In this document: positions 2,977 to 39,675 of the stretch, piece after piece
How positions within the stretch are numbered: the first letter of the stretch is position 1
How the letters are laid out: every line of letters starts with the position of its first letter
Assembly (NCBI GenBank): GCA_048941285.1
Contig: JBHLNS010000008.1
Location: 30,009 to 94,008 of the forward strand
Reading direction: 5' to 3'
Origin: Promethearchaeota archaeon
GTDB taxonomy: Archaea; Asgardarchaeota; Lokiarchaeia; Sigyniarchaeales; SOKP01
Length of the DNA: 64,000 nt
Notes under the pieces: generated by a model
What the model saw: only the letters and a program-made list of their open reading frames with translations
What the model was told of the DNA's origin: nothing
Database searches by the model: none
Made by a program: the position numbers and the translations under genes

Positions 2977-3891
2977 TCATTTTATAAATTTCTGTTTAAA
3001 TGATTCGATAGTACTTGATATTTCATTAATGTGAATTTTTAATTCCTTTGGATGAATTTCTTTTAATTTATCTAGATTTTCTATAATTTCCTTCAATTCA
3101 TCTATCCAAAGATTCATAAGAATTTCTTTTTCTTTGTTTTTACAAGCTAATTTTATTTCATCATTTATCCATTCTTTTGCGCTTTCTTTTATCTGTTTTT
3201 TTTGAACATCAAGGGTGATTTTTACTAAATCTTGTTCATTTTTTAAGCTCTCTAACATGAGTTCTAGATTATTCTTAAACTCTGTGTTTTCTTCATTATA
3301 TTTTTTAATTATATCTCGTAGAACTTCTTCTTTAATACCAAACTCTTCCCTGACATGATTAACCTTTGTAGCAAATTCTTCACTCAAATTGTTGATTTTT
3401 CCTATGATTGATTCTATGTGATTTTTAAAATTAGTTATATGTTTATCTAACTTTTGGTCAACCGTCATAAATTTATTTTCTATCTCTAAATTAAGTGTTT
3501 TAAAGTTAGTCTCTAGTTTATTTGAAAGTGATGTGAATTTATCTTTTAATTCACTTTCAAACAAGTTTGTTGAATCCTCGATTATCTTGGTTGTTGAAGT
3601 TTCTTGTTTTTCTAGGTTTTGCTTTTGTTGCGTGAGCTGTTCTTTTGTATATTGTTCTAATTTATTGATTTGGTCACTCGATTTCGCTTCAAGAGCATCA
3701 ACTTTTTCATTTAGACCTTGATCAAGTTTATTCAACCGATTAGATAATTTTTTTTCTAAATTGTTTATTTGTTCATTTGTTTTTTGCTCTGATTTTTTTA
3801 TCTGTTCATTAATTTTGTTATCTAGCTTGCTAAGTAGTTCTTTTAATTTCTGGAATTCCTTTAAAGATATTTCTTCAGATATTTTGTTCAC
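2977..3891 (-). CDS. Coiled-coil protein, function unknown
   Basis: 304 aa, almost entirely K/E/L/N/Q-rich helical heptad-like sequence. It lies 60 nt downstream of the GTPase gene on the same strand. Confidence 0.6.
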   Translation of the reverse strand: MNKISEEISLKEFQKLKELLSKLDNKINEQIKKSEQKTNEQINNLEKKLSNRLNKLDQGLNEKVDALEAKSSDQINKLEQYTKEQLTQQKQNLEKQETSTTKIIEDSTNLFESELKDKFTSLSNKLETNFKTLNLEIENKFMTVDQKLDKHITNFKNHIESIIGKINNLSEEFATKVNHVREEFGIKEEVLRDIIKKYNEENTEFKNNLELMLESLKNEQDLVKITLDVQKKQIKESAKEWINDEIKLACKNKEKEILMNLWIDELKEIIENLDKLKEIHPKELKIHINEISSTIESFKQKFIK

Positions 3892-3950: not shown

Positions 3951-4955
3951 TTAATCAAATTGAAATTGTTCCTCTTTTGTTTTTAAGATTATTTTCACCA
4001 ATTCAAATTCTTCTCTTTTTAATTTTTCAATTATTTCAATATTGTTTTCAAAGTCTTTTTTAGCTATAATTAAAAGCTCTCTAAGGTTGTAAATTAAATC
4101 ATTAACTGATTTAGAGTAAGTTCTTTTTAATTTCATTATAGTTTTACTAAGTTCAGATAAATTAATCAAAAATGTATCAATAATATCGAGTTTTTGAATC
4201 GAGTTGTTTTCTAACTCTTTTTTTAGAAAGTCGTAGAATTTCAATTCTTTAGTTTCTTTTTCCTCAATACTAACTTCTTTGATTTTTGGTGATATTTCCT
4301 GCTTTTTTAGTATTACATCTAAATTATTTAAAGTTACTAATTCAGTTTTTAATTGTTTTTCGTTTTTATTGATTGATTTCAAAAATCCTGAAGCTGTATT
4401 ATTCTGAACAATATCAGGATATAAGATTTCTGCTTTTCGTAAAAAAGTATAAACTAATAATTCAAAAGAATCATTAATATTTTTGCCTGTTTTAGCAGAT
4501 ACGAATACTAAATTATCATTCTTAGTTAAAAAATTAGTGAGATTAGTTTTAATCTGTTTGTCATTGGTGACTAGATCCAATTTATTACCGATAAAAAGTC
4601 TTAAAACATCCTCAGAATGATAATTTACATTTTCTAAGAACTCATCTCTTAGGTGTTTTAAAGTTTCTTTTGGTTTTGTTAAATCGAAAACTAAAAGCAC
4701 GATATCGATATTTTTATATAATGCGGGATTAAAGGGATTAAACGACCTTTGACCTCCTATATCCCATATCGAAAGCAAAACTCTTATTATATTTCCATTA
4801 TCTTTCATAACATATTCTTTTTTAGTAGTTTCACTACCAATTGTTGGTAAATATTGATCGGGAAATTGACGCCCCATAAACGCGTTTATAATTGAAGTTT
4901 TCCCAACATCTCCTTCTCCGAGAACAACCAGTTTTAAATTTATAGTATTATCCAA
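3951..4955 (-). CDS. Rab/Ras-like small GTPase with ~160-aa C-terminal helical/coiled-coil extension
   Basis: G1 GEGDVGKTS, G2-region PTIG, G3 WDIGGQ, G4 GNKLDL, G5 SAKTGKNI. After about aa 175 comes a long K/E/L/I-rich helical tail. There is no C-terminal Cys lipidation motif (ends EEQFQFD). Confidence 0.85.
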   Translation of the reverse strand: MDNTINLKLVVLGEGDVGKTSIINAFMGRQFPDQYLPTIGSETTKKEYVMKDNGNIIRVLLSIWDIGGQRSFNPFNPALYKNIDIVLLVFDLTKPKETLKHLRDEFLENVNYHSEDVLRLFIGNKLDLVTNDKQIKTNLTNFLTKNDNLVFVSAKTGKNINDSFELLVYTFLRKAEILYPDIVQNNTASGFLKSINKNEKQLKTELVTLNNLDVILKKQEISPKIKEVSIEEKETKELKFYDFLKKELENNSIQKLDIIDTFLINLSELSKTIMKLKRTYSKSVNDLIYNLRELLIIAKKDFENNIEIIEKLKREEFELVKIILKTKEEQFQFD

Positions 4956-9874: not shown

Positions 9875-10834
9875 TTAGAAGTTGGAATATACCATAAATT
9901 TATCTCCGGAGCCTAAACTGTAAAGTTCGAATTTACCTCCTCGTTTGGTTTCACAAAACATTTGGATCAAAGGGAATAGGTAAATTTGTGTAGTTACTTG
10001 TGAATCTTTATCTTTAGTATATGTTCTGTAGTCGCTGTTTGCAGCATTTATAGTCTTTTTAATATTTTTATTCCAGTATCCTAATGAGGGTTCTGCTTTT
10101 GATTCTAATTCTTTAAAATCACTAAATTTTATACCTTCCACTTCTTCAATCATCTTGTGGAGATCTTCCCCTATTTCTTTCTCATATTTCGTTTGTGCAC
10201 TTGAATGAAGTATAGGGACACCGGTAACGACAGTTTGAAAAGGTACAGGTAGTTCCTCATATTTATAAAGGTTTTTATGGCCTCCACATTCTTTACACTG
10301 CTCGGTTCTGTTTCCAGTACCATAACAAGCCCCACAAGGGTAAGAAAACACTTTTTTCTCTTTTTTTTGTTCTTGGCCAACTAATACTGTAAGATTTTCT
10401 TCAATTTTACCAGTTCCTTTACAAGTTTTGCATTTCTCTTCAATATATCCTTTGCCTCTACAGTTTTTACAAACTACAGCTTGTAGTGATTCAAACTGAG
10501 GTAATATCTCATCTCCTTTCCATTCATCCTTATTTATTTTTCCAGTACCTTTAAATGAATAGAATTGTACTCTTCCTACCCTAGGAGCAGTTATAGTATT
10601 TTCCTCTTTTCCCTTTGGTACTGGACCAAGTGACTTTTTTACTGCAAAATAAATTGCTGCTTCCTTATTAGTATCTTTTACGTATTCAGCAGCACTTATA
10701 GCATCTAACGAAAAAACTGCTCCTTTTGTTCCAAATTGTTTTTCCATCTTTTTCCTATCTGTCCTAGCCGCTTTTTGTTTCCATTTCTCAAAAATATCAT
10801 CTAAATTAGGTGTTTTTATTCTCACATCAGGCAT
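9875..10834 (-). CDS. Protein with DnaJ-type cysteine-rich (CxxCxGxG) zinc-finger module, no J domain
   Basis: 319 aa. Four knuckles: CKNCRGKG, CKTCKGTG, CGACYGTG, CKECGGH (aa 122-186). The flanking N- and C-terminal domains are unrecognised. Confidence 0.6.
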   Translation of the reverse strand: MPDVRIKTPNLDDIFEKWKQKAARTDRKKMEKQFGTKGAVFSLDAISAAEYVKDTNKEAAIYFAVKKSLGPVPKGKEENTITAPRVGRVQFYSFKGTGKINKDEWKGDEILPQFESLQAVVCKNCRGKGYIEEKCKTCKGTGKIEENLTVLVGQEQKKEKKVFSYPCGACYGTGNRTEQCKECGGHKNLYKYEELPVPFQTVVTGVPILHSSAQTKYEKEIGEDLHKMIEEVEGIKFSDFKELESKAEPSLGYWNKNIKKTINAANSDYRTYTKDKDSQVTTQIYLFPLIQMFCETKRGGKFELYSLGSGDKFMVYSNF

Positions 10835-15802: not shown

Positions 15803-16666
15803 TCAAATAGACTCCATCTGTTTTTTATAAAGAAAAAACGTGTTCTCACAAAGCATCGCAACGGTCATAGGACCTATACCTCCTGGAACAGGTGTAATTT
15901 TTCCGCACTTTTCAAAAACATCTTCAAAATCGATATCACCATATAATTTACCTGCAACTCTATTGATACTGACATCAACAAGAATGGCTCCATCTTTAAT
16001 TTTTTCTTTAGTTATGAAATTTGGTTTTCCAACGGCGACTATTAATATATCTGCTTTTTGGATATAATTGTTGATATTCTTCGTGGAAGTGTGACATATT
16101 GTAACGGTGGCATTTCTTTTCAACAACATAAAAATTAAAGGTTTGCCAACTAAATTTGAACGATTAATAATGACTACATCTTTACCTTTCAACTCTATAT
16201 TATTATTTTCTAATAATGAAATGATACCTTTTGGTGTGCAAGGTGCATGTTCTTCATTATAATCAAATAGTTTTCCTCTTGTAATAGGATTTAAACCATC
16301 TGCATCTTTTATTGGCAAGATTTTCTCTAAAAATTCAGGTGTATAATCTTTTAGATGTTCTGGAAGAGGTATTTGCAATAAAATTCCGTGAATATTTGTA
16401 TTTTTATTAAGCTTATCAATATCTTCTAAAAGTTCCTCCTTTGAAATTTGCTCATCTAACTCAATAATCATGGAATCAATGCCTACACTTTCACATGTTC
16501 TTTTTTTAATGTTAACATAGACTTTAGATGCAGGATCTTTCCCTACAATTATAGTAGCTAGTTTTGGTCTAATACCGGTTTTTTCAACTGCCTTTTTAAT
16601 TTGTTTTTTTAATTCTAAATTTAATTGTTCTGCTAATTTCGTTCCATCCAATATTTTATTATTCAT
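15803..16666 (-). CDS. folD: Bifunctional methylenetetrahydrofolate dehydrogenase / methenyl-THF cyclohydrolase
   Basis: GKDPASKVYVNIKKRTCESVGI, INRSNLVGKPL, and PVPGGIGPMTVAMLCENT at the C-terminus. Confidence 0.9.
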   Translation of the reverse strand: MNNKILDGTKLAEQLNLELKKQIKKAVEKTGIRPKLATIIVGKDPASKVYVNIKKRTCESVGIDSMIIELDEQISKEELLEDIDKLNKNTNIHGILLQIPLPEHLKDYTPEFLEKILPIKDADGLNPITRGKLFDYNEEHAPCTPKGIISLLENNNIELKGKDVVIINRSNLVGKPLIFMLLKRNATVTICHTSTKNINNYIQKADILIVAVGKPNFITKEKIKDGAILVDVSINRVAGKLYGDIDFEDVFEKCGKITPVPGGIGPMTVAMLCENTFFLYKKQMESI

Positions 16667-16754: not shown

Positions 16755-17864
16755 TTAAATTCTTCTTCTTCTCCAAAGAAAAATAGCTATAGCGATAATT
16801 AATCCAATTGAACCTAAAACAATTCCTAAAATAAGGAAATTAAACTCAACCGTCCAGATCTCGTAAAGTAAACTAGATAATAAATTTAGTATTTCTAAAG
16901 TTTTAAAAGCATAAAAACAAGAGACAACAGAAGAGATTTTTGGTTGAAATTCTCCAGTATTCTCGAAAAATCCGCCATCCTCGAAATTTTGGTGTTTTAA
17001 TACCCATAATTGTATTTCACGATTATTTAAAATATTATTATCAATTATTGAAATTGCTTTTACACAATAATATGTACTACTTAATAATGCATTTCCAGCT
17101 AATTCATTAGGAAGAAATCCTCCATAATTGTGTAAATCGGCAGAATTATTAACATAAAAAGACTTTAGATATGCTAATGTGCTATCAATATTAATTAAAT
17201 CATGAATATCTCCAAACCTTTCATCATCTAGAATAAATACTGCAAAACTTGTATCAAGATATGTAGATAATGAGGTTTCATTCCCTCCATATCCACCATC
17301 AGGATTATTGCATGAAAGAACCCAATTTTTATGAATTGATACATTTAAAATAGGTTGTTCTATTAGCGCGTAAATTTGTATGGCATAAAACGTTGAACTT
17401 ATGGTTGGTAAACCAGTTGTGTTTGAAAAAGAAAAACCCCCACTTATTTGAGCAATATTATTTAGATAGTTATAAATTCTATTTGATAGACTTGAGTCAA
17501 TGGTGTACTCTAATAGATTTAGTGAATTTAATAGATAATATAAGTTATATATATTTATTCGAGTACTATCAAACATGTCTTCAATTTTTCCTTCTAAATG
17601 AGTCTCTAAAGTGTCATCACTTTTGGGATTTCTTCCCAAATTATTTAATAAATACAAAGCATAAGCTGTTGCTTCAAAAGAAACTAAATCACCACTAGGA
17701 TCATCCATAATGGCATTGGAAAAGCCTCTTCCTTCAATTTCAGTATCTAATATAAAATCTGCTAAATATGATTGGCGTGTTTTTCCTAATACGTTCGGAA
17801 TTGTATTTACTGTGAAAAATAATATGAGCGTAATTATGATAAAATTCCGATATTTATATTTCAA
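16755..17864 (-). CDS. Membrane-anchored extracytoplasmic prenyltransferase/squalene-oxidase-repeat (alpha-alpha toroid) protein
   Basis: N-terminal signal-like helix IIITLILFFTVNTIP. Repeated glycine motifs ISGGFSFS, PDGGYGGN, NYGGFLPN, EDGGFFEN. C-terminal TM helix followed by WRRRRI. Confidence 0.65.
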   Translation of the reverse strand: MKYKYRNFIIITLILFFTVNTIPNVLGKTRQSYLADFILDTEIEGRGFSNAIMDDPSGDLVSFEATAYALYLLNNLGRNPKSDDTLETHLEGKIEDMFDSTRINIYNLYYLLNSLNLLEYTIDSSLSNRIYNYLNNIAQISGGFSFSNTTGLPTISSTFYAIQIYALIEQPILNVSIHKNWVLSCNNPDGGYGGNETSLSTYLDTSFAVFILDDERFGDIHDLINIDSTLAYLKSFYVNNSADLHNYGGFLPNELAGNALLSSTYYCVKAISIIDNNILNNREIQLWVLKHQNFEDGGFFENTGEFQPKISSVVSCFYAFKTLEILNLLSSLLYEIWTVEFNFLILGIVLGSIGLIIAIAIFLWRRRRI

Positions 17865-18021: not shown

Positions 18022-19542
18022 TTAAAGAATTTCACTAATATCTCTATATAATAATTCTCTATTAACTTGAAATTGATCATATGTGATAAAGAGTTTTCGA
18101 AAGGATCCTAAACTTCCAAGTATTGCCGCTCCATTAAAAATAGCATATTGAAGATTATCGGGTATAAAAAATTTGAGTACTTTGCTTGCTGATTTAATCG
18201 ATTCAGAGAATTCCTGGGCTGGTGATTTTTCTTTTAACTTTTTTGGTAGATTACTTGTCTCTAAAGTTTCTATTGGTTTTCCACAATATGGGCAAAATAG
18301 TGATTCTGAGTCAGGAAGATCCTTACTGCAATAGGGGCATTTTACTACTTTGATCTTTTGTTTACTATCATCTATTTCACCAATCTTAATCTCTGGTAAG
18401 ACTAATACTCCTCCACATGAGGGACATACATTTTTTCCATCACTGAGATCTATAAATGCTCCACAGTGAGGGCAAGTATCCTCTTTCTTTTTTGAAATTT
18501 CAACGGCTTGGAGCTTGATTAGTTCGCTTTTAACAGCAGAAAGAGGTGTGACTGGTTTTGGAATAGATCCTAATTCAGGAAGTCCTAATTCTAACTCTGT
18601 TTCAAAGCGTTCTTGAAAGCCAGAATAGGAAAGATTGCCTCCTGAAAAAACTATATGAGATAAAAGATCATACCAATATAAACTATCTATATTTCTCAAA
18701 CTAGCGATAATCGCTTGAGGGATATTCATAACATTACTGTAACCTAGCATTGCAGGATTGAATAATACTTCCGGAGCTTGATAAAGAATGTAAGTTGGAA
18801 CCTTTATTGTTGAACCATCAGGCATTGGAACACTAAACATATCTCCTGTCTTCATAGACTTATTGGCGTCTAAAACAAAATAACAATTCTTCTCTTTAAT
18901 TTCTTGTAAAATTTCATCTGCGGCACTAGATGCGATACTAACACCTTCTCTCATTAAAAGGCTTTTTAAATTTTGATTTACATCAATTCCAGCAAGAGGA
19001 AGCTTCTGAACTGCATGTTGAACAATTGTCCCGTTTATTATTGGGGCAATCCAAGTTAAACCATCTCCCGATTCGATAACCATACCTGTTGTTAGACCAA
19101 CACTAAATAAGGATAGTAGCGGTGTTGGCATCATTATCAGACTGTTAACTCGGTGGGTTTCAAAGAAAACTCTAGCAATGTATTCTTTTGTTTCTTTATG
19201 CATAAAAGGAGATTCGCAATAGAACACTGGATATTGAGAAAGATCTTCAATTCTAAGTAGTGAATAAAAAATGTAATTCAATATTTCATAATAGCTATCC
19301 CAATCCATGATATTACCTCTTTCGATTGGATGTTTAATTTTTAGTACACCCCGCATTCGAGAAACATCATTTCCAACATATATACTACGAGCACTTACAT
19401 CAACCATAACAGATTTATATTTCTCAGTGCCAGTAATACAAGGAAACACAAATCTTGGTCCAGGTTCTCCTGCAAATCCGATTTTGACGTATGCTGATCC
19501 CATATCAATTATGATAGGTGTTCCAGGTAAAGGCAGTGCCAT
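18022..19542 (-). CDS. Divergent actin-family (Arp-like) protein with internal double zinc-ribbon insertion
   Basis: Actin-fold signatures IIIDMGSAYVKIGFAGEPGPRFVFPCITG, VIESGDGLTWIAPIINGTIV, IVFSGGNLSYSGFQERF and C-terminal YAIFNGAAILGSLGSFRKLFITYDQF. The inserted segment contains CPHC-x12-CPSC and CPYC-x11-CPYC (aa 357-420). Confidence 0.8.
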   Translation of the reverse strand: MALPLPGTPIIIDMGSAYVKIGFAGEPGPRFVFPCITGTEKYKSVMVDVSARSIYVGNDVSRMRGVLKIKHPIERGNIMDWDSYYEILNYIFYSLLRIEDLSQYPVFYCESPFMHKETKEYIARVFFETHRVNSLIMMPTPLLSLFSVGLTTGMVIESGDGLTWIAPIINGTIVQHAVQKLPLAGIDVNQNLKSLLMREGVSIASSAADEILQEIKEKNCYFVLDANKSMKTGDMFSVPMPDGSTIKVPTYILYQAPEVLFNPAMLGYSNVMNIPQAIIASLRNIDSLYWYDLLSHIVFSGGNLSYSGFQERFETELELGLPELGSIPKPVTPLSAVKSELIKLQAVEISKKKEDTCPHCGAFIDLSDGKNVCPSCGGVLVLPEIKIGEIDDSKQKIKVVKCPYCSKDLPDSESLFCPYCGKPIETLETSNLPKKLKEKSPAQEFSESIKSASKVLKFFIPDNLQYAIFNGAAILGSLGSFRKLFITYDQFQVNRELLYRDISEIL

Positions 19543-19641: not shown

Positions 19642-20067
19642 TTATTTTTTTATATATTTAAGCAGAGTTTTGAGGATCTCTTTTTGCATAACTAATCCAA
19701 TAAGTTCATTATTTTCATTTATAACAGGTAATCGTTGTACTTTTTTATTGAACATTATCTCTAAAACATAAATTAATGTGTCATTTTCTTTTACAACGAA
19801 AGGTTCTGGAGTCATTAAGTCCTTGACAAGTGTATTAGGTGAGTCTAGACTCATCGCAAATCTTGCAAGACGTATATCTCTCTGTGTAATTATTCCAATT
19901 AATTTCTTATCCTTGCGATCCTTAACAATTGGAAGGCCTCCAATATTTTTTCTAATCATTAATAGTTCAGTAGCACTAATTTTTTCATTTGGAAATGAAT
20001 ATAGCGGATCTTTTATCATTATCTCAGATACTTTTATATTACCTAATTTTTTTAAGCAATCTTCCAT
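19642..20067 (-). CDS. CBS-domain pair protein
   Basis: 141 aa. Two CBS repeats (GGLPIVKDRKDKKLIGIITQRDI and QRLPVINENNELIGLVMQKEIL). Confidence 0.8.
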   Translation of the reverse strand: MEDCLKKLGNIKVSEIMIKDPLYSFPNEKISATELLMIRKNIGGLPIVKDRKDKKLIGIITQRDIRLARFAMSLDSPNTLVKDLMTPEPFVVKENDTLIYVLEIMFNKKVQRLPVINENNELIGLVMQKEILKTLLKYIKK

Positions 20068-23082: not shown

Positions 23083-25812
23083 ATGTTTAATCTTGAAGAA
23101 TTTAAGGATAGCTTAATTCTTGAAAAAGTTGATAAGCTAAATAAATACTTTTTTAAGAAAAAATCTGATAAAATATCTAAAATACTCAAAGAATTTTTAG
23201 CTTTATTAGATCAACAAGAATATGTTGTACCAATTACATATATTTTAAGTATTATAGCAGAAAAGGAAATAGAACTTATTTCTGAAGGATTAATAGAAAG
23301 AATTGAGGTTTTTTTCAACTCTGAGAATACTAAACTAAGGATTAACTCACTAATTATTATTGGATTTTTTATACAAGCAAATCCAAATTATATTAAAAAA
23401 TATTTTCAAGAATTCGTAAAATTCCTATTAGATGATTTTGAGGATGTTAGAAATAATATTCACTACTTTCTGCCAAAATTGGTTGAATTAAAACCTGAAT
23501 TAGCAAAAGATAATATAGATATCATCTTACAGAGTTTTGAAATTGAACAAAACAATGATAATCTTATTTCTTTATTAAAATTATTGCTTAAATGTGAAAT
23601 TCTTGAATTTGATCAGTTATATACTATTAAAAATATTTTAAAATCAATTCTTAACATAATTGAAATCAAAGAAAACTCTAAATTATTTAGAGAAGTAATA
23701 AATATAATAAAAAAGGTATATTCAGAGCTCGTTAAACTCGATTTGGAGAAAGAAGGTGCTGGAATAATCATAAACTTATTAGAAAATCAATTTTTAATGA
23801 AAAAAACAAATTTTACTGAAGTAGGTAGAAAAACTGGGATACAATTAAAAGACTATTTAAAGAAATTTGTAAAATCTAAGTTAAAGGATAAAAAAATCTT
23901 TTTTTATATTAAAACAAAAGAAAATTTGATATATATTTATGAATTAGAAAAAAGCAAATTAAAAAGATTCTTTGAGCAGAAAATTAAAATATCAGATGAG
24001 CTTATCAAGAAAACTTTTTCGCAAGTTATAGATAATGGCTCAGAATTAAAAATTTTTATCAAAACGTTAAATAACTTAAAATTAATTGATGGTTATTATT
24101 CTAACATTGGATTTTTTTATCCAACTATTTATATAAAGTCAATGTTATTAGAAGATTTACAAACAAATGGAGCTATAAGCATAAAAAAGTTCAATTTTCT
24201 TCCACATAATTTTATTGAAAGAATCATTAAAGATATTTCCAAGGTTACCAATCAAAAATTTTTAAGACATAAAGATAAAGAAACTTATATATCTTTAAAA
24301 AAAGTTAAAGATCAAATTAATTCTGAAGCAGCAAAAAAAAGTGTTATAGAATTACGACAATATCGTGAGATTTTATTTGATGAAGATTTCATAAAATTGA
24401 TAAAAAATATGCCTAGAGCGTTTTTATCAGAATTTCATAAAGGAACACAGTGGTTAACTAATCTAGGGTCACAAAAAATTAGTAATGAGATCCAAAATTC
24501 TAAAATAGTTGGTTATTTTAACATTTCTAAAGTATCTGATAAATTAAATATAGCAGAGCTTCTATTATTAGACGTTTTTGAACAATTTGTAGATTATAGA
24601 AGTGGGATTTGGAATAGAGAAAAAAATATCTTTTATTATTCAAAGTATTTAAAAGAAAAAATCGATCAAATTAGTTTAGTTTCTGATGAACATGAAAAAT
24701 TGCAGCAAATTGAAGTGATCTCTACAGAACTTAATATTGATAAGAATCATATTTTATCCAAAATAGATGAAAATTTACAATTGATTGCAGAAGAAATAAA
24801 ACAGAAAGATCAAATAATATTAAGTGAATACCTCCAAAAAACAGGGATGGAATTAGATGATTTTTTGACATTTATTGATGATTTAGATATTCATTACTTC
24901 AGAAAGGCGGATTTATTAATTTTTAATACTCAGAAAATTGATGAGGCAAAAAATGAAATAAAATATATGTTAATTGATAAGTCTAAATCAGAGGATTATA
25001 TACCACTAGGAACAATGAAATTTATTCAATCAACTCTGATTGAAGATTTAATGAAGGAATTACTACAAGATGGAAAGTTAAAAGGCATTTTTCATGAAGA
25101 GGAAGGAGAACTCATTTTTTATACGGAACGAGGAATCGGTAAGTTGATGCTAGAAAATAGCTTACTTTTTTCATTTCATGATTTATTTTATGGTAAGGAA
25201 TTAAATCAAGAAGAAATTGATTTATTGAAGGGAATATTTGAAGATTTAATTAAAAGTAGAGTTATCAAAGGAGATTTTGATGAGGAAACGTTAACTTTTT
25301 CTAGTGATGAAGTATTATTTGCGAAAGATTACAATATTGTTTTATCGGAATTTGAAAAAATGGTAGAAAATTATATTAAGAATTTTGAAATTGAATTCCA
25401 AAAGATCAAAAAAATTCTTATTAAGAGAGAAGAAACAATTTTTCCACAAGAGATAAAGTATATTCAAGATATTATTGACAAAATTAATGAGAAATATATT
25501 AATTGGAGAAGTGGTTTAGAAGCTTTTATACGTAGAACTAATAAAAAGTTATTAAGAGATCAAGGTATTAGCGTAAGACAATATAAAACCATTCTCTCAA
25601 AAGAAAAAAAAGAAGAAATAAAATCATTAGAGCAAGATCCCGAAGTACATGAGCTTTTAAATAAATTTAATAATTGGGTAAAAAGATATAATAAAATTGA
25701 ATTAAAATATCCAAATATAATATTTTACCAAAAAAGATTGATGAATAATCCAGAAGACAGGGAGTCTAATACTAAATTAATAGAATTATTAGATGAATTA
25801 GAGTTAAAATAG
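23083..25812 (+). CDS. Large helical protein: N-terminal HEAT/ARM-like solenoid plus repeated winged-helix-like modules, function unknown
   Basis: 909 aa, K/E/I/L-rich. The first ~220 aa show HEAT-like periodicity (NTKLRINSLIIIGFFIQANPNYIKKYFQEFVKFLLDDFEDVRNNIHYFLPKLVEL). Later segments repeat a pattern such as NGAISIKKFNFLPHNFIERII and KIVGYFNISKVSDKLNIAELLLLDVFEQFV. Confidence 0.4.
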   Translation: MFNLEEFKDSLILEKVDKLNKYFFKKKSDKISKILKEFLALLDQQEYVVPITYILSIIAEKEIELISEGLIERIEVFFNSENTKLRINSLIIIGFFIQANPNYIKKYFQEFVKFLLDDFEDVRNNIHYFLPKLVELKPELAKDNIDIILQSFEIEQNNDNLISLLKLLLKCEILEFDQLYTIKNILKSILNIIEIKENSKLFREVINIIKKVYSELVKLDLEKEGAGIIINLLENQFLMKKTNFTEVGRKTGIQLKDYLKKFVKSKLKDKKIFFYIKTKENLIYIYELEKSKLKRFFEQKIKISDELIKKTFSQVIDNGSELKIFIKTLNNLKLIDGYYSNIGFFYPTIYIKSMLLEDLQTNGAISIKKFNFLPHNFIERIIKDISKVTNQKFLRHKDKETYISLKKVKDQINSEAAKKSVIELRQYREILFDEDFIKLIKNMPRAFLSEFHKGTQWLTNLGSQKISNEIQNSKIVGYFNISKVSDKLNIAELLLLDVFEQFVDYRSGIWNREKNIFYYSKYLKEKIDQISLVSDEHEKLQQIEVISTELNIDKNHILSKIDENLQLIAEEIKQKDQIILSEYLQKTGMELDDFLTFIDDLDIHYFRKADLLIFNTQKIDEAKNEIKYMLIDKSKSEDYIPLGTMKFIQSTLIEDLMKELLQDGKLKGIFHEEEGELIFYTERGIGKLMLENSLLFSFHDLFYGKELNQEEIDLLKGIFEDLIKSRVIKGDFDEETLTFSSDEVLFAKDYNIVLSEFEKMVENYIKNFEIEFQKIKKILIKREETIFPQEIKYIQDIIDKINEKYINWRSGLEAFIRRTNKKLLRDQGISVRQYKTILSKEKKEEIKSLEQDPEVHELLNKFNNWVKRYNKIELKYPNIIFYQKRLMNNPEDRESNTKLIELLDELELK

Positions 25813-32673: not shown

Positions 32674-33204
32674 ATGAAATTAGAGGAAATATTTGATCCT
32701 AAAATTATAGAGATTGAAAAGGAGATTATTGATAAACTATTAAATTATACAGTTTTTACTGTTCGGGGTGAAATAACATCAACGATACTCTTCTATTTTA
32801 TAACTCGGAAAGATTTAACACAATCTAAGCTCCGAAAATTGACTGGTTTTTCTGCGGGAAAAATTTCTCAGGAACTTAATAATTTTCTAGAATTTAATTT
32901 AATAAAAATTTCTAAATATTCAAAACCATGGGTTTATTCTATGGATTCTGTAGTGACAGAAACCTTCAGTAGAGCAATTAACCTCTTGAAAGCAAATATT
33001 AAATGGGAGGAGAAATTCCTCGAAATAAAAAAAGATTTGGATAATAATAAAGAAACACTTCAAAAATTAAATGGATACGACAAAGTAAAAGATTTTCTTG
33101 AGATAAATCTAATGAGATTTGCTGGTTTTAAGGTTATAATAAAACTTTGGGAAGATCTTAAAAAAAAATATGAAAATAAATCCCTACCAAATCAGGGGAA
33201 TTAA
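32674..33204 (+). CDS. Winged-helix transcription regulator, half B of a split pair
   Basis: 176 aa. TILFYFITRKDLTQSKLRKLTGFSAGKISQELNNFLEFNLIKI is an HTH. It is colinear with the C-terminal half of ORF 35706-36776 and starts 2 nt after the half-A stop. Confidence 0.6.
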   Translation: MKLEEIFDPKIIEIEKEIIDKLLNYTVFTVRGEITSTILFYFITRKDLTQSKLRKLTGFSAGKISQELNNFLEFNLIKISKYSKPWVYSMDSVVTETFSRAINLLKANIKWEEKFLEIKKDLDNNKETLQKLNGYDKVKDFLEINLMRFAGFKVIIKLWEDLKKKYENKSLPNQGN

Positions 33205-33864
33205 TTTTTTCTTGGTTTTTTGAGCATATTCTGTGTATCCTTCAAGCTCTTCATGTAGCATTCTATCCTCCAAAACGGTACGAATTATTAACCCGGCAAC
33301 TCCAAGCATTGTAGGTATAAGTGAATAAAGAGAACCAAGGGCTAAACAATAAAATACTATAAATAAAACAAATCCAAAATACATTGGATGCCGTACTAAT
33401 CTATAAGGTCCAGTAGTTATTACTTTATGATCTCGATCTTTTTGAATCTCGACTGATTTTGACAAAAAAGTGTTTTCTTTCATTACTAAAAAGATAATTG
33501 CTAATCCTAAAGTCATTCCAATAAACCCAATGATTTCAACCCAGAATGGAATGTATGACCAGCCATACTTTCGTTCAAATCCTGGTATCATAAATGTTGG
33601 AAAAAATCCGAATCCCATTAATATCATGACAATTTTATCCCATTTTTCTGTGAATTTGGGTTTAGCCCTTTTCTGGAGCATTTCAGGGTCGTGTTTATCA
33701 AAATATAAGACTACTGTTGTGAAAAAGATTGAAAATATAATAAGATAGATCCACGTCTCAAGCCAGAAAAATGTTCCCGCTGGGATAAATAAACCTAATC
33801 CTAGGAAGGCGGTAACAATATATACAATTAATAATAATGTTGATTTGGTAATTTTTTTAGGCAT
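33184..33864 (-). CDS. ICMT/PEMT-family membrane methyltransferase (isoprenylcysteine carboxyl methyltransferase-like)
   Basis: 226 aa, multi-pass. Signature GPYRLVRHPMYFGFVLF and C-terminal EDRMLHEELEGYTEYAQKTKKKLIPLIW. Confidence 0.75.
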   Translation of the reverse strand: MPKKITKSTLLLIVYIVTAFLGLGLFIPAGTFFWLETWIYLIIFSIFFTTVVLYFDKHDPEMLQKRAKPKFTEKWDKIVMILMGFGFFPTFMIPGFERKYGWSYIPFWVEIIGFIGMTLGLAIIFLVMKENTFLSKSVEIQKDRDHKVITTGPYRLVRHPMYFGFVLFIVFYCLALGSLYSLIPTMLGVAGLIIRTVLEDRMLHEELEGYTEYAQKTKKKLIPLIW

Positions 33865-37987: not shown

Positions 37988-38584
37988 ATGAGTTATAACC
38001 GAAAAGATATTTTATTTAGCTTTAAAACCGTGATTTGTGGTGCCAGTTCAGTAGGTAAAACCTCATTATTTAATCGTTATTGTTTTAACTCATTCAATTT
38101 TGATAGCTCTCCAACAATTGGAATAAATTTTCATTCTGTCTATTTAAAAATAAATTTTAAAAAGGAGATAAACCCACAGAAGGAAAATTATGTTGTAAAC
38201 TCTATTTTTGATTTCGGAGGGCAAGAAAGATTTACCCCGTTAATTCCAAAATTTATAGACGGTGCTAATGGAGCTTTATTAGTTTTTGATTCCGTAAATT
38301 TTCCATCTTTCAATCAATTAGATTTTTGGTATGATAATATCATTGAAAATGCAATAGATCCAAAGATTCCTATTATATTAGTTGCAAATAAAAGTGATTT
38401 AATAGAGAAAACCTCAGAATCTGAAATTATTCATGATAAATTAATTTTTGAATATTTAGAAAATCGAAAATTAGATGGTTTCGCTAGAACATCCGCTTTA
38501 GAGAATTACAATGTTTTAGAAGTATTTAAAAAATTAAATAATTTAATGTTGAAGAAACAACGGATTCCATTTGTTGTAGCATAA
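37988..38584 (+). CDS. Rab-like small GTPase
   Basis: G1 GASSVGKTS, G2 SPTIGINF, G3 FDFGGQERF, G4 ANKSDL, G5 TSALEN. 198 aa with no C-terminal cysteine (ends IPFVVA). Confidence 0.85.
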   Translation: MSYNRKDILFSFKTVICGASSVGKTSLFNRYCFNSFNFDSSPTIGINFHSVYLKINFKKEINPQKENYVVNSIFDFGGQERFTPLIPKFIDGANGALLVFDSVNFPSFNQLDFWYDNIIENAIDPKIPIILVANKSDLIEKTSESEIIHDKLIFEYLENRKLDGFARTSALENYNVLEVFKKLNNLMLKKQRIPFVVA

Positions 38585-38601: not shown

Positions 38602-39675
38602 TTAAAATTCTCTTGAATAAACAAAATCTGAAAAACCATTAAAAAAGATTTTTTGTTCTCTATTTAGATCGGGGTAAATCTCTTTTAGAGAAGTTTTAGC
38701 TTGTTCAATGAAATTTTTCGCTAAACTCTCAGCAATCATTAGTGCATTAGTTTCTAAGAAAATATTCTTCACTGTTTTTACATCATTATTTGTTAAATTT
38801 TCTTTATGATAAATTTCGTTTATTGCTTTAGATTGTTCTTCATCTGTATTTTGAACTGCTAAAATATATACAATTTTTCTCTTCTTTCCTTTAATGTCGT
38901 CTTCTAGATCAAGGATATCATCACGTATTGCATGAGCTTGACCAATTCGTAACATTGCATAACTTAATGGTTTAATTTGATAATGAATATTACCTTTTGC
39001 TAAAATTGCTCCAATTTTAGTAGACTTTTCAAATATTCTTGCTTTTTGAAATTCAGCGATATTCAAATATTGTTCTAAAGTCATAGTTATATTATTATAG
39101 TTCATGTACTCTTCAACCAATTGTCCCTTCATCAAATAATCCATTGCTTCTGTATATTCATTAATAGCAAATAGTTTCAATTGTTCTGGAAATTTTGAAG
39201 ATTTTAAAATATCTAAACCTAAAAGATAACCTTGTGTACCTCCTAATATTGACATGTCTCTTCCATATAATTCAATTACTTCTTCTTTATTTGGGAGATC
39301 TAAATCCTTATACACTTGATTTATTTCGTTTTCTAATTGCATATGAAAAGTTGGTTTTCCTCTTCTTGTTTTATCATCATCAAGAAGATCATCATGTATT
39401 AAATGTCCACTGTGTAGCAATTCGACTGATATGGAAACCTCACGAATTTGTTCTATTTGATCTCCTAAATACATAGGGTTTACAATACCAGAATAAGCAG
39501 CAATTAGTAAAATAGGGTGGATTCTTTTAGCTTTTTCATTTAAAATGAATTCTTCAAGTTGATTAATAAAATCATTTAAAAGTATATCCTTTTCTTTTTT
39601 ATGCAGATTAGCAAAGTATCTTTCTAATTGCTGGTCTACCATCATTTTTTCGAGTTTAAAGAATTTATCAATCAT
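38602..39675 (-). CDS. trans-Polyprenyl diphosphate synthase (GGPP/FPP synthase family)
   Basis: First Asp-rich motif LIHDDLLDDDKTRRG and second Asp-rich motif IRDDILDLEDD. Confidence 0.85.
   Translation of the reverse strand: MIDKFFKLEKMMVDQQLERYFANLHKKEKDILLNDFINQLEEFILNEKAKRIHPILLIAAYSGIVNPMYLGDQIEQIREVSISVELLHSGHLIHDDLLDDDKTRRGKPTFHMQLENEINQVYKDLDLPNKEEVIELYGRDMSILGGTQGYLLGLDILKSSKFPEQLKLFAINEYTEAMDYLMKGQLVEEYMNYNNITMTLEQYLNIAEFQKARIFEKSTKIGAILAKGNIHYQIKPLSYAMLRIGQAHAIRDDILDLEDDIKGKKRKIVYILAVQNTDEEQSKAINEIYHKENLTNNDVKTVKNIFLETNALMIAESLAKNFIEQAKTSLKEIYPDLNREQKIFFNGFSDFVYSREF

What the first reader, a model, noticed from the sequence alone, without database searches (positions are those of the whole stretch)
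18022..19542. Actin-fold protein with two zinc ribbons inserted into its C-terminal half
Seen in sequence:
- The ORF carries the ordered actin/Arp signatures: phosphate-1 IIIDMGSAYVKIGFAGEPGP, ESGDGLTWIAP, phosphate-2 region IVFSGGNLSYSGF, and C-terminal YAIFNGAAILGSLGSFRKLFITYDQF.
- Between the last two elements lies about 130 aa with no counterpart in canonical actin (aa ~325-455).
- That insert contains CPHC-x12-CPSC and CPYC-x11-CPYC (nt 18283-18474).

Established: Asgard archaea encode actins and Arp-like proteins. In canonical actin the corresponding stretch is a short segment of subdomain 3.

Inference: this is a metal-binding module grafted onto an actin fold. It could tether the filament or monomer to another partner (nucleic acid, ubiquitin-like protein or membrane protein). 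I do not recognise this architecture as a described one.
Basis: partly seen in the sequence, partly recalled or inferred. Interest (0 to 1): 0.75.

Follow-up and report, generated by a model that had tools for sequence, protein, structure and literature searches.

The report
Asgard actin-related protein with zinc-ribbon insert
This is a real, widely conserved actin-like protein of Loki-type Asgard archaea that carries two zinc-binding mini-domains inserted next to a filament-contact loop, lacks actin's ATP-splitting residues and always sits beside a gene for a cell-surface membrane protein; nobody appears to have described it or tested its function.

Summary
Window 18022-19542 (-) encodes a 506-aa protein with an actin fold (Pfam Actin E=4e-64; Foldseek TM 0.88-0.92 to actins). 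A ~130-aa insert (aa 326-456) replaces 2 residues of canonical actin and holds two Cys4 zinc ribbons.

It is not an assembly artefact. More than 120 90%-identity clusters and at least 80 species-level MAGs, nearly all labelled Promethearchaeota (the Loki lineage), encode the same ~506-aa architecture. All eight cysteines are invariant.

On the actin core alone, all ribbon-bearing actins form one clade. It contains double-ribbon forms and single-ribbon forms (some labelled Sigynarchaeota).

The clade keeps the phosphate-binding residues but lacks the catalytic Q137 (0/70) and mostly H161 (6/70). The D-loop, barbed-end cleft and SD4 P-D-G contact loop are its most conserved parts. The insert begins right after the SD3 loop that makes the longitudinal F-actin contact. 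The ribbons are not basic.

The gene directly downstream, on the same strand, encodes a membrane-anchored extracellular alpha/alpha-toroid (prenyltransferase-like) protein in 87/87 loci with room for it.

Best reading: an ATP-binding, hydrolysis-impaired ARP whose ribbons are a protein-docking module, possibly tied to the cell surface. Function is untested, and I found no published description.

The parts
18022..19542 (-). Complete ORF of the zinc-ribbon actin-related protein (506 aa plus stop)
   Evidence: ORF list. Pfam Actin + Zn_ribbon_3/DZR. 120 listed homologues of the same length.
18568..19542 (-). Actin core, N-terminal part (aa 1-325): subdomains 1, 2, 4 and most of 3, including phosphate-1 (D13, G15, K20), phosphate-2 (E157, G159, D160, G161, W164) and the adenosine motif (G301, G302)
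   Evidence: Pfam Actin 9-318. PDB alignment. AF2 pLDDT >90 over most of it. Site counts.
19384..19434 (-). D-loop equivalent (aa 37-53, TGTEKYKSVMVDVSARS), with the clade-specific conserved signature G-x-E-K-Y-K-x-V-M-V-D
   Evidence: Column identity 0.93 against 0.84 for the core. K41 69/70, Y42 69/70, M46 67/70 and D48 65/70 in the deep clade.
18175..18567 (-). Insert (aa 326-456) between the actin SD3 loop (about P322-M325) and strand I327-I330. It opens with the conserved LPxLGx(I/L)P exit motif (its first residues, 321-325, lie just upstream of this span).
   Evidence: Alignments. Canonical actins have 2 residues here. Motif counts L324 68/70, G325 69/70, P328 67/70.
18400..18486 (-). 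Zinc ribbon 1 (aa 353-381; C357, C360, C373, C376)
   Evidence: Pfam Zn_ribbon_3 356-380. Cysteines invariant. pLDDT about 86-91. Present in every clade member.
18268..18348 (-). Zinc ribbon 2 (aa 399-425; C402, C405, C417, C420)
   Evidence: Pfam DUF7575 400-425 and Zn_Ribbon_1 401-423. Cysteines invariant. pLDDT about 84-87. Absent from the single-ribbon subclade.
18178..18219 (-). Predicted helix after the ribbons (aa 442-455) carrying the conserved A-x-E-F motif
   Evidence: DSSP helix 443-455. A442 56/70, E444 62/70, F445 60/70.
18025..18174 (-). Actin core, C-terminal part (aa 457-506): SD3 strand and SD1 C-terminal helices that form the barbed-end cleft
   Evidence: PDB alignment aa 452-493 to actin 318-358. 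pLDDT about 95.
16755..17864 (-). Conserved downstream partner gene: 369-aa protein with an N-terminal signal/TM segment, a prenyltransferase-like alpha/alpha-toroid domain, a C-terminal TM helix and a short basic tail (WRRRRI)
   Evidence: Pfam Prenyltrans E=1.6e-15. Directly downstream on the same strand in 87/87 loci with room and in 5/5 distant loci. Topology conserved in 8/8. Homologues lie on the same contigs.
19642..20067 (-). Upstream CBS-pair protein (141 aa), a frequent but not universal neighbour
   Evidence: Pfam CBS E=2.6e-28. Present near the gene in most loci and absent in about 20. Two genes downstream in the single-ribbon loci.

Best explanation
The gene encodes a member of a conserved, vertically inherited clade of Asgard actin-related proteins. 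The clade is found in the Loki lineage, with a single-ribbon sister group that includes Sigynarchaeota-labelled genomes.

SHOWN:
- The actin fold is intact.
- The nucleotide-phosphate-binding residues are invariant.
- The two residues that position the hydrolytic water in actin are replaced throughout the clade (Q137 -> S/T/A, H161 -> mostly W/F).
- The D-loop, the barbed-end cleft and the SD4 P-D-G loop are the best-conserved parts.
- The 130-aa insert starts immediately after the SD3 loop that makes the intrastrand F-actin contact. It contains two conserved Cys4 ribbons that are not basic, joined by variable linkers and followed by a conserved A-x-E-F helix.
- The gene is invariably followed by a gene for a membrane-anchored extracellular alpha/alpha-toroid protein.

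INFERRED:
- The protein binds ATP but hydrolyses it slowly or not at all, so it acts as a structural or adaptor ARP rather than a treadmilling actin.
- It still makes actin-type longitudinal contacts through its D-loop and cleft, with itself or with Lokiactin.
- The zinc-stabilised ribbons, displayed on the barbed-end/outer side of subdomain 3, form a protein-docking module that modifies or blocks the next longitudinal contact and recruits a partner.
- That partner is functionally connected with the neighbouring surface protein, so the system would couple actin-type cytoskeleton to the cell envelope.
For: Identity and fold:
- Pfam Actin 4e-64.
- PDB actins at 1e-61 to 1e-67.
- AF2 pLDDT 86, pTM 0.75.
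- Foldseek TM 0.88-0.92.

Real and conserved:
- 120 listed clusters of about 506 aa.
- 80 species genomes.
- 8/8 cysteines invariant.
- Ribbon-bearing actins are monophyletic on core-only columns.
- Distant members have ribbons at the same site.

ATPase:
- Q137 0/70, H161 6/70 and D154->E 67/70.
- D11, G13, K18, G156, G158, G301 and G302 are invariant.

Contacts:
- Column identity is 0.93 for the D-loop and 0.96 for the cleft, against 0.84 for the core.
- P-D-G 70/70 and LPxLGx[IL]P conserved.
- SD3 321-325 contacts SD4 243-245 longitudinally in F-actin (PMC7247010).

Ribbons as a protein module:
- Net charge -1.6 and 0.0.
- Column identity 0.76 and 0.71, against 0.52-0.53 for the linkers.

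Precedents:
- Arp3 core insertions carry binding functions (PMC4947185).
- A helix with a conserved Phe docks in the barbed-end groove (ARPC1; PMC9295785).

Gene pair:
- 87/87 loci.
- 5/5 distant loci whose other neighbours differ.
- Partner topology conserved.
- Partner homologues lie on the same contigs.

Transcription:
- Metatranscriptome fragments of 97-98% identity lie inside the gene, including the ribbon region.
Against: - No experiment or complex model supports any partner.
- The partner's cytoplasmic tail is only 5-8 basic residues. That is what a stop-transfer anchor looks like anyway, so a direct ribbon-tail contact is doubtful.
- The intergenic gap of about 120-160 nt, with T-runs and TATA-like boxes, allows separate transcription, and no RNA was seen on the partner.
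- Within the close family, conserved adjacency may be plain synteny: FolD is equally conserved there. Only the 5 distant loci argue for selection.
- Loss of Q137/H161 predicts reduced hydrolysis by analogy with actin mutants. That comes from my own knowledge and was not measured here.
- I had no model coordinates or PAE, so the position of the ribbons relative to the core is not established.
- The strongly conserved D-loop and cleft fit a self-polymerising filament equally well (rival 1).
Confidence: 0.45

Rival explanations
1. The protein forms an independent filament system. It polymerises with itself into actin-like filaments. The clade-specific D-loop fits the clade-specific cleft. The ribbons project from the filament surface near the position of K326/K328 and serve for bundling, cross-linking or anchoring. 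Slow hydrolysis gives stable filaments.
For: - D-loop 0.93, cleft 0.96 and P-D-G 70/70 are the most conserved elements.
- The D-loop signature differs from that of canonical actins, which suggests homotypic co-evolution.
- The LPxLG start of the insert keeps the proline of the SD3 contact loop.
- K326/K328 next to the insertion point face outward in F-actin, where tropomyosin binds (title of PDB 9zbp, plus my own knowledge).
Against: - A 98-212-aa insert immediately after the Pro322-Met325 contact loop is likely to disturb the intrastrand contact (PMC7247010).
- The hydrophobic-plug region is only moderately conserved (0.69).
- In Ca. L. ossiferum the non-Lokiactin homologues are transcribed several-fold less than Lokiactin, and the observed filaments were assigned to Lokiactin (PMC9834061). 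It is not known whether any of those homologues belongs to this family.
Confidence: 0.25
2. The protein is a nucleic-acid-associated ARP, analogous to the nuclear Arp4/Arp8-type proteins: a non-hydrolysing actin fold that works as a monomeric module, with the zinc ribbons binding DNA or RNA.
For: - The catalytic residues are lost, and the core carries a large insertion, as in eukaryotic chromatin-remodeller ARPs (plus my own knowledge).
- The weak ribbon matches in the PDB are to RNA polymerase subunits RpoM and Rpo12, Nop10 and L37Ae (none significant).
- The segment before ribbon 1 is basic (+4.4).
- A helicase and a DRG GTPase lie within a few kb.
Against: - Ribbon net charges are -1.6 and 0.0, and the post-ribbon segment is acidic, down to -18 in distant members.
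- None of the PDB matches is significant.
- The one invariant neighbour is a membrane/surface protein, not a nucleic-acid enzyme.
- The helicase is not adjacent in the distant loci, except L089.
Confidence: 0.1
3. The ribbons have no partner of their own. They are a zinc-stabilised structural plug that occupies or stiffens the barbed-end side of subdomain 3, for example locking the ARP in one conformation or preventing polymerisation. The neighbouring gene is conserved by synteny alone.
For: - Small Cys4 ribbons often act as structural staples (my own knowledge).
- Apart from the cysteines and the adjacent P/G residues, few ribbon residues are invariant.
- One ribbon can be missing, as in the single-ribbon subclade and in P0311 and P0318.
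Against: - The ribbons are clearly more conserved than their linkers (0.76 and 0.71 against 0.52).
- The ribbon architecture and the A-x-E-F motif persist down to 35-45% core identity.
- The gene pair persists where other synteny has decayed.
Confidence: 0.12
4. Artefact: an assembly chimera, a frameshifted gene fusion or a mobile insertion (intein-like) inside an ordinary actin gene.
For: No single Logan contig spans nt 18563-18607 (aa 313-327) in the 8 runs examined.
Against: - The same in-frame architecture and length appear in more than 120 clusters and 80+ independently assembled genomes from many studies.
- Exact-match contigs cross the insert/C-terminal actin junction (X1 record 4, 18130-18504, 0 differences).
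- A contig covers aa 327-381.
- The uncovered stretch lies within actin helix 309-324, not at a domain seam.
- There are no intein or transposase matches.
- Purifying selection acts on the insert.
Confidence: 0.01

Closest known systems
Lokiactin / bona fide actin (Pfam PF00022)
   Same: - Same fold (TM about 0.9).
- Roughly 35-40% identity over the core by eye in the alignments (A3 gives 27-36% over the whole length).
- Same phosphate-binding motifs.
- Same D-loop length, the same P-D-G SD4 loop and the same C-terminal cleft helices.
   Different: - A 130-aa double zinc-ribbon insert where actin has 2 residues.
- Q137 and H161 replaced, D154->E, K336->Q.
- A clade-specific D-loop sequence.
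- The clade is separate from canonical actins on core-only columns.
Eukaryotic actin-related proteins with core insertions (Arp3, Arp4, Arp5, Arp8)
   Same: They follow the same logic: an actin fold keeps nucleotide binding while insertions in surface loops create new, complex-specific binding surfaces. Two Arp3 insertions control filament interaction and the attachment of a non-actin subunit (PMC4947185). Some nuclear ARPs have lost hydrolysis (my own knowledge).
   Different: - No orthology to any eukaryotic ARP class is evident: the best 60 PDB hits are all actins, not ARPs.
- To my knowledge, no eukaryotic ARP insertion is a zinc ribbon.
- I recalled that the Arp3 'alphaK/beta15 insert' may lie in the same loop, but I could not verify it because the paper is not held.
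Uncharacterised Asgard 'ARPs' (for example the three non-Lokiactin homologues of Ca. Lokiarchaeum ossiferum)
   Same: They are also Asgard actin paralogues outside the Lokiactin group, expressed at lower levels than Lokiactin and of unknown function (PMC9834061).
   Different: That paper mentions no zinc ribbon or insertion (0 occurrences of 'zinc'). Whether any of UYP47647.1, UYP44711.1 or UYP44126.1 belongs to this family could not be determined: their qPCR primers match none of the fetched loci.
Stand-alone or fused DZR / zinc_ribbon domains (Pfam PF12773, PF13248, PF13240, DUF7575)
   Same: Two CPxC-x11-12-CPxC knuckle pairs score above the Pfam gathering thresholds.
   Different: Here the module is inserted inside another domain's loop rather than attached at a terminus. 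These Pfam families have no established function, so the match names a fold and not a mechanism.
MreB-RodZ type cytoskeleton-envelope coupling (analogy only)
   Same: An actin-fold protein is genetically linked with a single-pass membrane protein whose bulk lies outside the cell.
   Different: There is no sequence relationship. RodZ binds MreB through a cytoplasmic HTH domain (my own knowledge), whereas this partner has only a 5-8-residue cytoplasmic tail. The 'rod shape-determining protein' label on some single-ribbon members is an annotation error: the MreB Pfam model hits them only secondarily.

Membership tests
Actin family (PF00022; actin/Hsp70/sugar-kinase ATPase fold) | Profile match above the curated threshold | tested here: met
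   217.1 bits against a cut-off of 27, aa 9-318. The C-terminal part aligns to actin 318-358.
Actin family (PF00022; actin/Hsp70/sugar-kinase ATPase fold) | Four-subdomain actin fold | tested here: met
   AF2 pLDDT 86. Foldseek TM 0.88-0.92 normalised to actin targets, E about 1e-35.
Actin family (PF00022; actin/Hsp70/sugar-kinase ATPase fold) | Phosphate-1, phosphate-2 and adenosine motif residues for nucleotide binding (D11, G13, K18, G156, G158, G301, G302) | tested here: met
   All are invariant in 70/70 clade members. Nucleotide binding itself was not measured.
Bona fide actin / Lokiactin (polymerisation-coupled ATPase) | Catalytic Q137 and H161 | tested here: not met
   Q137 0/70 (S/T/A). 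H161 6/70 (here W164).
Bona fide actin / Lokiactin (polymerisation-coupled ATPase) | About 375 aa with an uninterrupted SD3 loop 321-326 | tested here: not met
   506 aa. The insert is 98-212 aa in the clade, against 2 aa in 45/49 canonical sequences.
Bona fide actin / Lokiactin (polymerisation-coupled ATPase) | Filament formation | not testable with these tools
   Only indirect evidence: the D-loop, cleft and P-D-G loop are conserved.
Specific eukaryotic ARP classes (Arp1-Arp10) | Closer to one ARP class than to actin | tested here: not met
   The best 60 distinct PDB sequences are all actins, with no ARP among them. No dedicated ARP phylogeny was run.
Cys4 zinc ribbon (PF13248 Zn_ribbon_3 / PF12773 DZR / PF24460 DUF7575) | Two CxxC knuckles per ribbon, with a profile score above threshold | tested here: met
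   46.0/27, 28.5/27.3 and 33.3/28.5 bits. Cysteines invariant. The model shows beta-hairpins with pLDDT 84-91.
Cys4 zinc ribbon (PF13248 Zn_ribbon_3 / PF12773 DZR / PF24460 DUF7575) | Zinc actually bound (expected 2 per chain) | not testable with these tools
   Needs ICP-MS or PAR assay on recombinant protein.
Crenactin (NCBIfam NF053560) | Equivalog score at or above the cut-off | tested here: not met
   24.8 bits against a cut-off of 630.
MreB ('rod shape-determining protein' label on single-ribbon relatives) | MreB_Mbl profile as the primary match | tested here: not met
   The target has no MreB hit among the 25 best Pfam families. In relatives PF06723 appears only alongside PF00022, and they cluster with the ribbon-actins.
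Intein or mobile insertion | Splicing, endonuclease or transposase motifs in the insert | tested here: not met
   Only zinc-ribbon families match aa 326-456. The PDB search of the insert finds only generic ribbons.
Protein prenyltransferase beta subunit (for the partner gene 16755-17864) | Significant similarity, a cytosolic location, and an alpha-subunit partner | tested here: not met
   Only the repeat-level Pfam hit and E=0.004 to FTase beta. The predicted signal/TM segment plus C-terminal TM place the domain outside the cell. No alpha subunit lies nearby.

The most novel reading that the evidence does not exclude
The ribbon-actin and its invariably adjacent membrane-anchored extracellular alpha/alpha-toroid protein form a two-gene module that physically couples the actin-type cytoskeleton to the cell surface in the Asgard lineage known for actin-filled protrusions. 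In this reading a hydrolysis-dead ARP caps or decorates Lokiactin filaments through its D-loop and cleft, and uses its zinc ribbons and the A-x-E-F helix to dock at the membrane protein or an adaptor. That would be a prokaryotic forerunner of ARP-based, insertion-mediated cytoskeleton-membrane linkage.
Probability: 0.15. Interest if true: 0.85.

Novelty: new variant of a known kind. Interest (0 to 1): 0.62.

Why it matters
[quoted passage not shown] So far only Lokiactin, profilins and gelsolins have been characterised, and the Asgard 'ARPs' have no assigned function.

This family is a specific, abundant and sharply defined ARP lineage that already shows the eukaryotic ARP strategy: keep the actin fold, lose hydrolysis, and add a binding module in a surface loop. 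The module here is of a new type (zinc ribbons), sits at a filament-contact loop, and comes with a conserved membrane-protein neighbour.

That gives concrete hypotheses that are cheap to test: zinc content, ATPase activity, co-polymerisation with or capping of Lokiactin, and pull-downs. It also gives a candidate for linking the filaments seen in Loki cells to their envelope.

If the ribbons turn out to be merely structural, the finding is still a useful correction to database annotation.

Tried and rejected
1. The first AF2 run used a shallow 43-sequence alignment (62-100% identity). It gave pLDDT 45.7 and was unusable. Adding distant ribbon-actins and canonical actins fixed this.

2. Read-level chimera test. 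Logan contigs are too fragmented. The C-side junction is covered exactly, but nt 18563-18607 is uncovered in 8 runs. I relied on architecture conservation instead.

3. Search of the isolated insert against the PDB. Only non-significant generic ribbon matches came back, so there is no functional lead.

4. Linking the family to cultured Ca. L. ossiferum through the published qPCR primers. No matches in the fetched loci, and the translated primers were uninformative.

6. Verifying from the literature that the Arp3 alphaK/beta15 insert lies in the same loop. The paper (PMC3537046) is not held.

7. Nine of the ten literature searches looked for a description of the architecture or of Asgard ARPs and found none (the paper read). 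One call failed on a term that was too short.

8. An ESCRT link. ESCRT genes lie near only 2 of 5 distant loci and not in the window, so I did not pursue it.

9. I considered and rejected an intein, a pseudogene and a fusion artefact.
Full report
**1. The observation**

Pfam places an Actin domain on aa 9-318 (E=4.1e-64, 217 bits, cut-off 27). Several zinc-ribbon families fall on aa 356-425, all above their gathering scores: Zn_ribbon_3 at 46 bits, DUF7575 at 33.3, DZR at 28.5 and Zn_Ribbon_1 at 26.3.

phmmer against PDB sequences returns only actins. The best is 9wc4 'HC1 actin' at 1.9e-67, followed by yeast and muscle actins at about 1e-62. There are two aligned stretches: aa 6-323 to the actin N-terminal 320-350 residues, and aa 452-493 to the last strand and helices.

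The insert therefore replaces the short loop between actin helix 309-320 and strand 327-331. In a 119-sequence alignment, 45 of 49 canonical actins have 2 residues where this clade has 98-212.

The cysteine spacing (CPHC-x12-CPSC, CPYC-x11-CPYC) and the nucleotide coordinates 18283-18474 are correct.

One label needs correcting. IVFSGGNLSYSGF is the adenosine motif (actin G301-G302). Phosphate-2 is ESGDGLTW.

**2. It is real, conserved and old**

A word-indexed search of 5.8 billion proteins listed 120 clusters at 62-100% identity. Nearly all are 503-510 aa and all carry the same Pfam combination. In 118 full-length members, all eight insert cysteines are 100% conserved.

A scan of one genome per GTDB species found 120 relatives. 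The best 80 are full-length orthologues at 61-89% identity. Almost all come from MAGs labelled Promethearchaeota or Promethearchaeia, which is the Loki lineage in NCBI taxonomy.

An exhaustive HMMER search of 1.84 billion 50%-identity representatives shows that only a handful of representative clusters carry the ribbon architecture. Below them, the list passes to ordinary and tandem eukaryotic actins.

These deeper relatives (35-48% identity, 480-626 aa) have ribbons at the same site. They carry either four CxxC pairs or two. Some of the single-ribbon forms carry Sigynarchaeota names.

A neighbour-joining tree built only from columns shared with canonical actins, so with the insert excluded, puts all 70 ribbon-bearing sequences in one clade. 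The single-ribbon group is sister to the double-ribbon group. The simplest history is one ancient insertion followed by gain or loss of the second ribbon.

An assembly chimera is excluded by this breadth. At read level, exact-match Logan contigs cross the insert/C-terminal junction (18130-18504, 0 differences), and another covers aa 327-381. No single contig spans nt 18563-18607, which lies inside actin helix 309-324.

Three sediment metatranscriptomes contain fragments at 97-98% identity within the gene. Two of these fragments cross the ribbon-coding part (18310-18481). None falls on the neighbouring genes. This is weak evidence of transcription, but it is positive.

**3. Anatomy**

With a shallow alignment AF2 failed (pLDDT 45.7). 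With 119 diverse sequences it gave pLDDT 86 and pTM 0.75:
- the actin core is mostly above 90;
- ribbon 1 (about 353-381) is at 86-91;
- ribbon 2 (about 399-425) is at 84-87;
- the linkers 343-345, 387-396 and 427-439 are below 50;
- a helix spans 443-455.

Foldseek confirms the actin fold (TM 0.88-0.92 normalised to the targets). Coordinates and PAE were not available to me, so the placement of the ribbons relative to the core is unknown.

Nucleotide site. D11, G13, K18, G156, G158, G301 and G302 (actin numbering) are invariant in 70/70 clade members, and K213 and E214 are nearly so (66/70 and 68/70). Q137 is never present (S, T or A; here T140). H161 is kept in only 6/70 (here W164). D154 is E in 67/70, and K336 is lost. 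In actin, Q137 and H161 position the attacking water (my own knowledge). The clade therefore looks built to bind ATP but not to hydrolyse it efficiently.

Contact surfaces. Within the close family, the D-loop (column identity 0.93) and the cleft segment LSLFSVGLTT (0.96) are more conserved than the core average (0.84). Across the deep clade:
- the D-loop has its own signature, G-x-E-K-Y-K-x-V-M-V-D;
- the SD4 loop P-D-G is invariant (70/70);
- the insert opens with LPxLGx(I/L)P (L 68/70, G 69/70, P 67/70).

In F-actin, Pro243-Asp244-Gly245 of SD4 contact Pro322 and Met325 of the SD3 loop of the neighbouring subunit along the strand (PMC7247010). The insert therefore begins exactly at a longitudinal contact. 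It must either project outward beside it or interfere with it.

The insert itself. The ribbons (column identity 0.76 and 0.71) are better conserved than their linkers (0.52-0.53). Their mean net charges are -1.6 and 0.0. The segment before ribbon 1 is basic (+4.4). The post-ribbon segment is acidic, reaching -18 in distant members. An A-x-E-F motif in the helix after the ribbons is conserved across the deep clade (A 56/70, E 62/70, F 60/70). The isolated insert matches only generic ribbons in the PDB, none significantly.

**4. Genomic context**

The window is AT-rich (GC about 0.29) and encodes typical Asgard content, including two Ras-family GTPases and a JAB/MPN protein.

Around the gene the order is: MBL hydrolase, small HTH protein, CBS-pair protein, ribbon-actin, prenyltransferase-like protein, FolD, a 151-aa ORF, DRG-type GTPase, DEAD/DUF5814 helicase. 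The order is identical in relatives at 78% and 65% identity.

The key result concerns the downstream prenyltransferase-like gene. It lies directly after the ribbon-actin, on the same strand, in 87 of 87 fetched loci with room for it. That includes all five distant loci (actin 35-44% identical, partner only 23-26%), where the upstream genes differ (GFO/IDH, ECH, HTH) and FolD is replaced by MTD in the single-ribbon group.

The partner has the same topology in 8/8 examples: an N-terminal signal-like hydrophobic segment, an alpha/alpha-toroid domain, one C-terminal TM helix, and a 5-8-residue basic tail. Its similarity to farnesyltransferase beta is marginal (E=0.004). Its predicted extracellular location argues against a prenyltransferase activity.

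Its homologues come from the same contigs and the same labels as the ribbon-actins, and they diverge faster (best non-self hit 72% against 90%).

The intergenic gap (157 nt here, with a T-run and TATA-like boxes) allows separate promoters.

**5. How it most likely works**

Shown:
- an intact actin fold with invariant phosphate-binding residues;
- loss of the catalytic residues;
- strong constraint on the D-loop, cleft and P-D-G loop;
- the location of the insert at the SD3 contact loop;
- conserved, non-basic Cys4 ribbons;
- an invariant membrane-protein neighbour.

Inferred: this is a structural or adaptor ARP. It binds ATP and engages actin-type longitudinal contacts, with itself or with Lokiactin. 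It presents a zinc-stabilised protein-docking module on the barbed-end/outer side of subdomain 3, and it is functionally connected with the envelope protein next door.

There are precedents for this logic. Insertions in the Arp3 core carry complex-specific binding functions (PMC4947185). [quoted passage not shown] That second case is a possible model for the A-x-E-F helix, but only by analogy.

I put about 0.45 on this composite. The identity part is near certain. The mechanism part is much weaker.

Main rivals:
- a separate self-polymerising filament with outward-facing ribbons (0.25);
- a nucleic-acid-binding, nuclear-ARP-like module (0.10, disfavoured by charge and context);
- ribbons as a purely structural plug (0.12);
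- an artefact (0.01).

**6. Comparison with what is known, and novelty**

The protein is a member of the actin family. Every family-defining feature I could test was met.

It is not a bona fide actin or Lokiactin, because the catalytic residues and the uninterrupted loop were tested and not met. It is not crenactin (24.8 bits against a cut-off of 630) and not MreB. It shows no special affinity to any eukaryotic ARP class.

It works like eukaryotic ARPs in one respect: an insertion in the core serves as a binding surface.

Ca. L. ossiferum is reported to have three non-Lokiactin homologues of unknown function, with no mention of zinc (PMC9834061). I could not establish whether any of them belongs to this family.

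Searches of the held library found no description of an actin with zinc ribbons. Databases label the family inconsistently.

I rate it a new variant of a known kind, with interest 0.62. It is a sharply defined, abundant and testable ARP lineage in the organisms most relevant to eukaryogenesis, and its function is still unknown.

Noticed in passing
L085 286-2487; L088 581-1937: In two of the five distant ribbon-actin loci, ESCRT genes lie 3-5 kb upstream: Vps4 (MIT-AAA-Vps4_C) plus an ESCRT-II-like ORF in L085, and two Snf7 genes in L088. No ESCRT genes were seen in the window itself.
   Followed up: partly
window 15803-16666; L087 7819-8682; L088 8196-9035: FolD follows the partner gene in all double-ribbon loci. 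In the single-ribbon loci the same position holds MTD (methylene-H4MPT dehydrogenase) on the opposite strand. This is an analogous C1-carrier dehydrogenase at the same place.
   Followed up: no
window 19642-20067 and homologous loci: A 141-aa CBS-pair protein is usually immediately upstream of the ribbon-actin. It is still nearby (two genes downstream) in the single-ribbon loci, but is missing from about 20 loci. It may be a nucleotide-sensing accessory, or this may just be synteny.
   Followed up: partly
L075, L013, L019, L041, L044, L062 and others; P0290, P0136: Orthologues at 61-88% identity with identical synteny sit in MAGs labelled Hodarchaeota, Hermodarchaeota, Thorarchaeota, Odinarchaeota, 'Nanopelagicaceae bacterium', Bathyarchaeota and Firmicutes. 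These labels are probably mis-binned or mis-assigned.
   Followed up: no
window 23083-25812 (+): A 909-aa ORF whose only Pfam signal is a weak, sub-threshold Intein_splicing hit (aa 513-786). An 886-908-aa ORF with no Pfam hit occupies the corresponding place in L001 and L003.
   Followed up: no
window 3951-4955 (-) and 37988-38584 (+): Two Ras/Roc/Arf-like small GTPases. The first is 334 aa, with a C-terminal extension of about 165 aa that matches no Pfam family. Next to it are coiled-coil ORFs (14-1468 and 2977-3891) with weak ATG16 and apolipoprotein-type matches.
   Followed up: no
window 56743-61422 (+): A 1559-aa ORF with no Pfam match at E<=1e-4.
   Followed up: no
window 46062-47681 (+): A 539-aa protein with an N-terminal JAB/MPN deubiquitinase-type domain and a weak SNAP/TPR-like C-terminal match.
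   Followed up: no
window 33184-33864 (-) and 38602-39675 (-): An ICMT/PEMT-type membrane methyltransferase (the isoprenylcysteine carboxyl methyltransferase family) and a polyprenyl synthetase lie in the same window as the prenyltransferase-like surface protein. They are not adjacent to it, and no link has been established.
   Followed up: no
P0128, P0129, P0323, P0325: Just below the ribbon-actins, the profile's best hits are eukaryotic proteins of 677-782 aa; the two I read (P0128, P0129) are two complete actin domains in tandem. Sources include EukProt entries and Anaeramoeba ignava.
   Followed up: no
L085 6652-6891 and 7070-7807: In this locus the partner gene appears split. A 79-aa ORF carries the signal segment and the first conserved motif (KTRQEYVVDFI), and a 245-aa ORF carries the rest. 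This may be a frameshift, a sequencing error or a real split.
   Followed up: no
window 9875-10834 (-); L089 9192-10268: A 319-aa protein with a sub-threshold DnaJ CXXCXGXG zinc-finger match lies about 8 kb from the ribbon-actin. A similar 358-aa ORF lies near the distant orthologue in L089.
   Followed up: no
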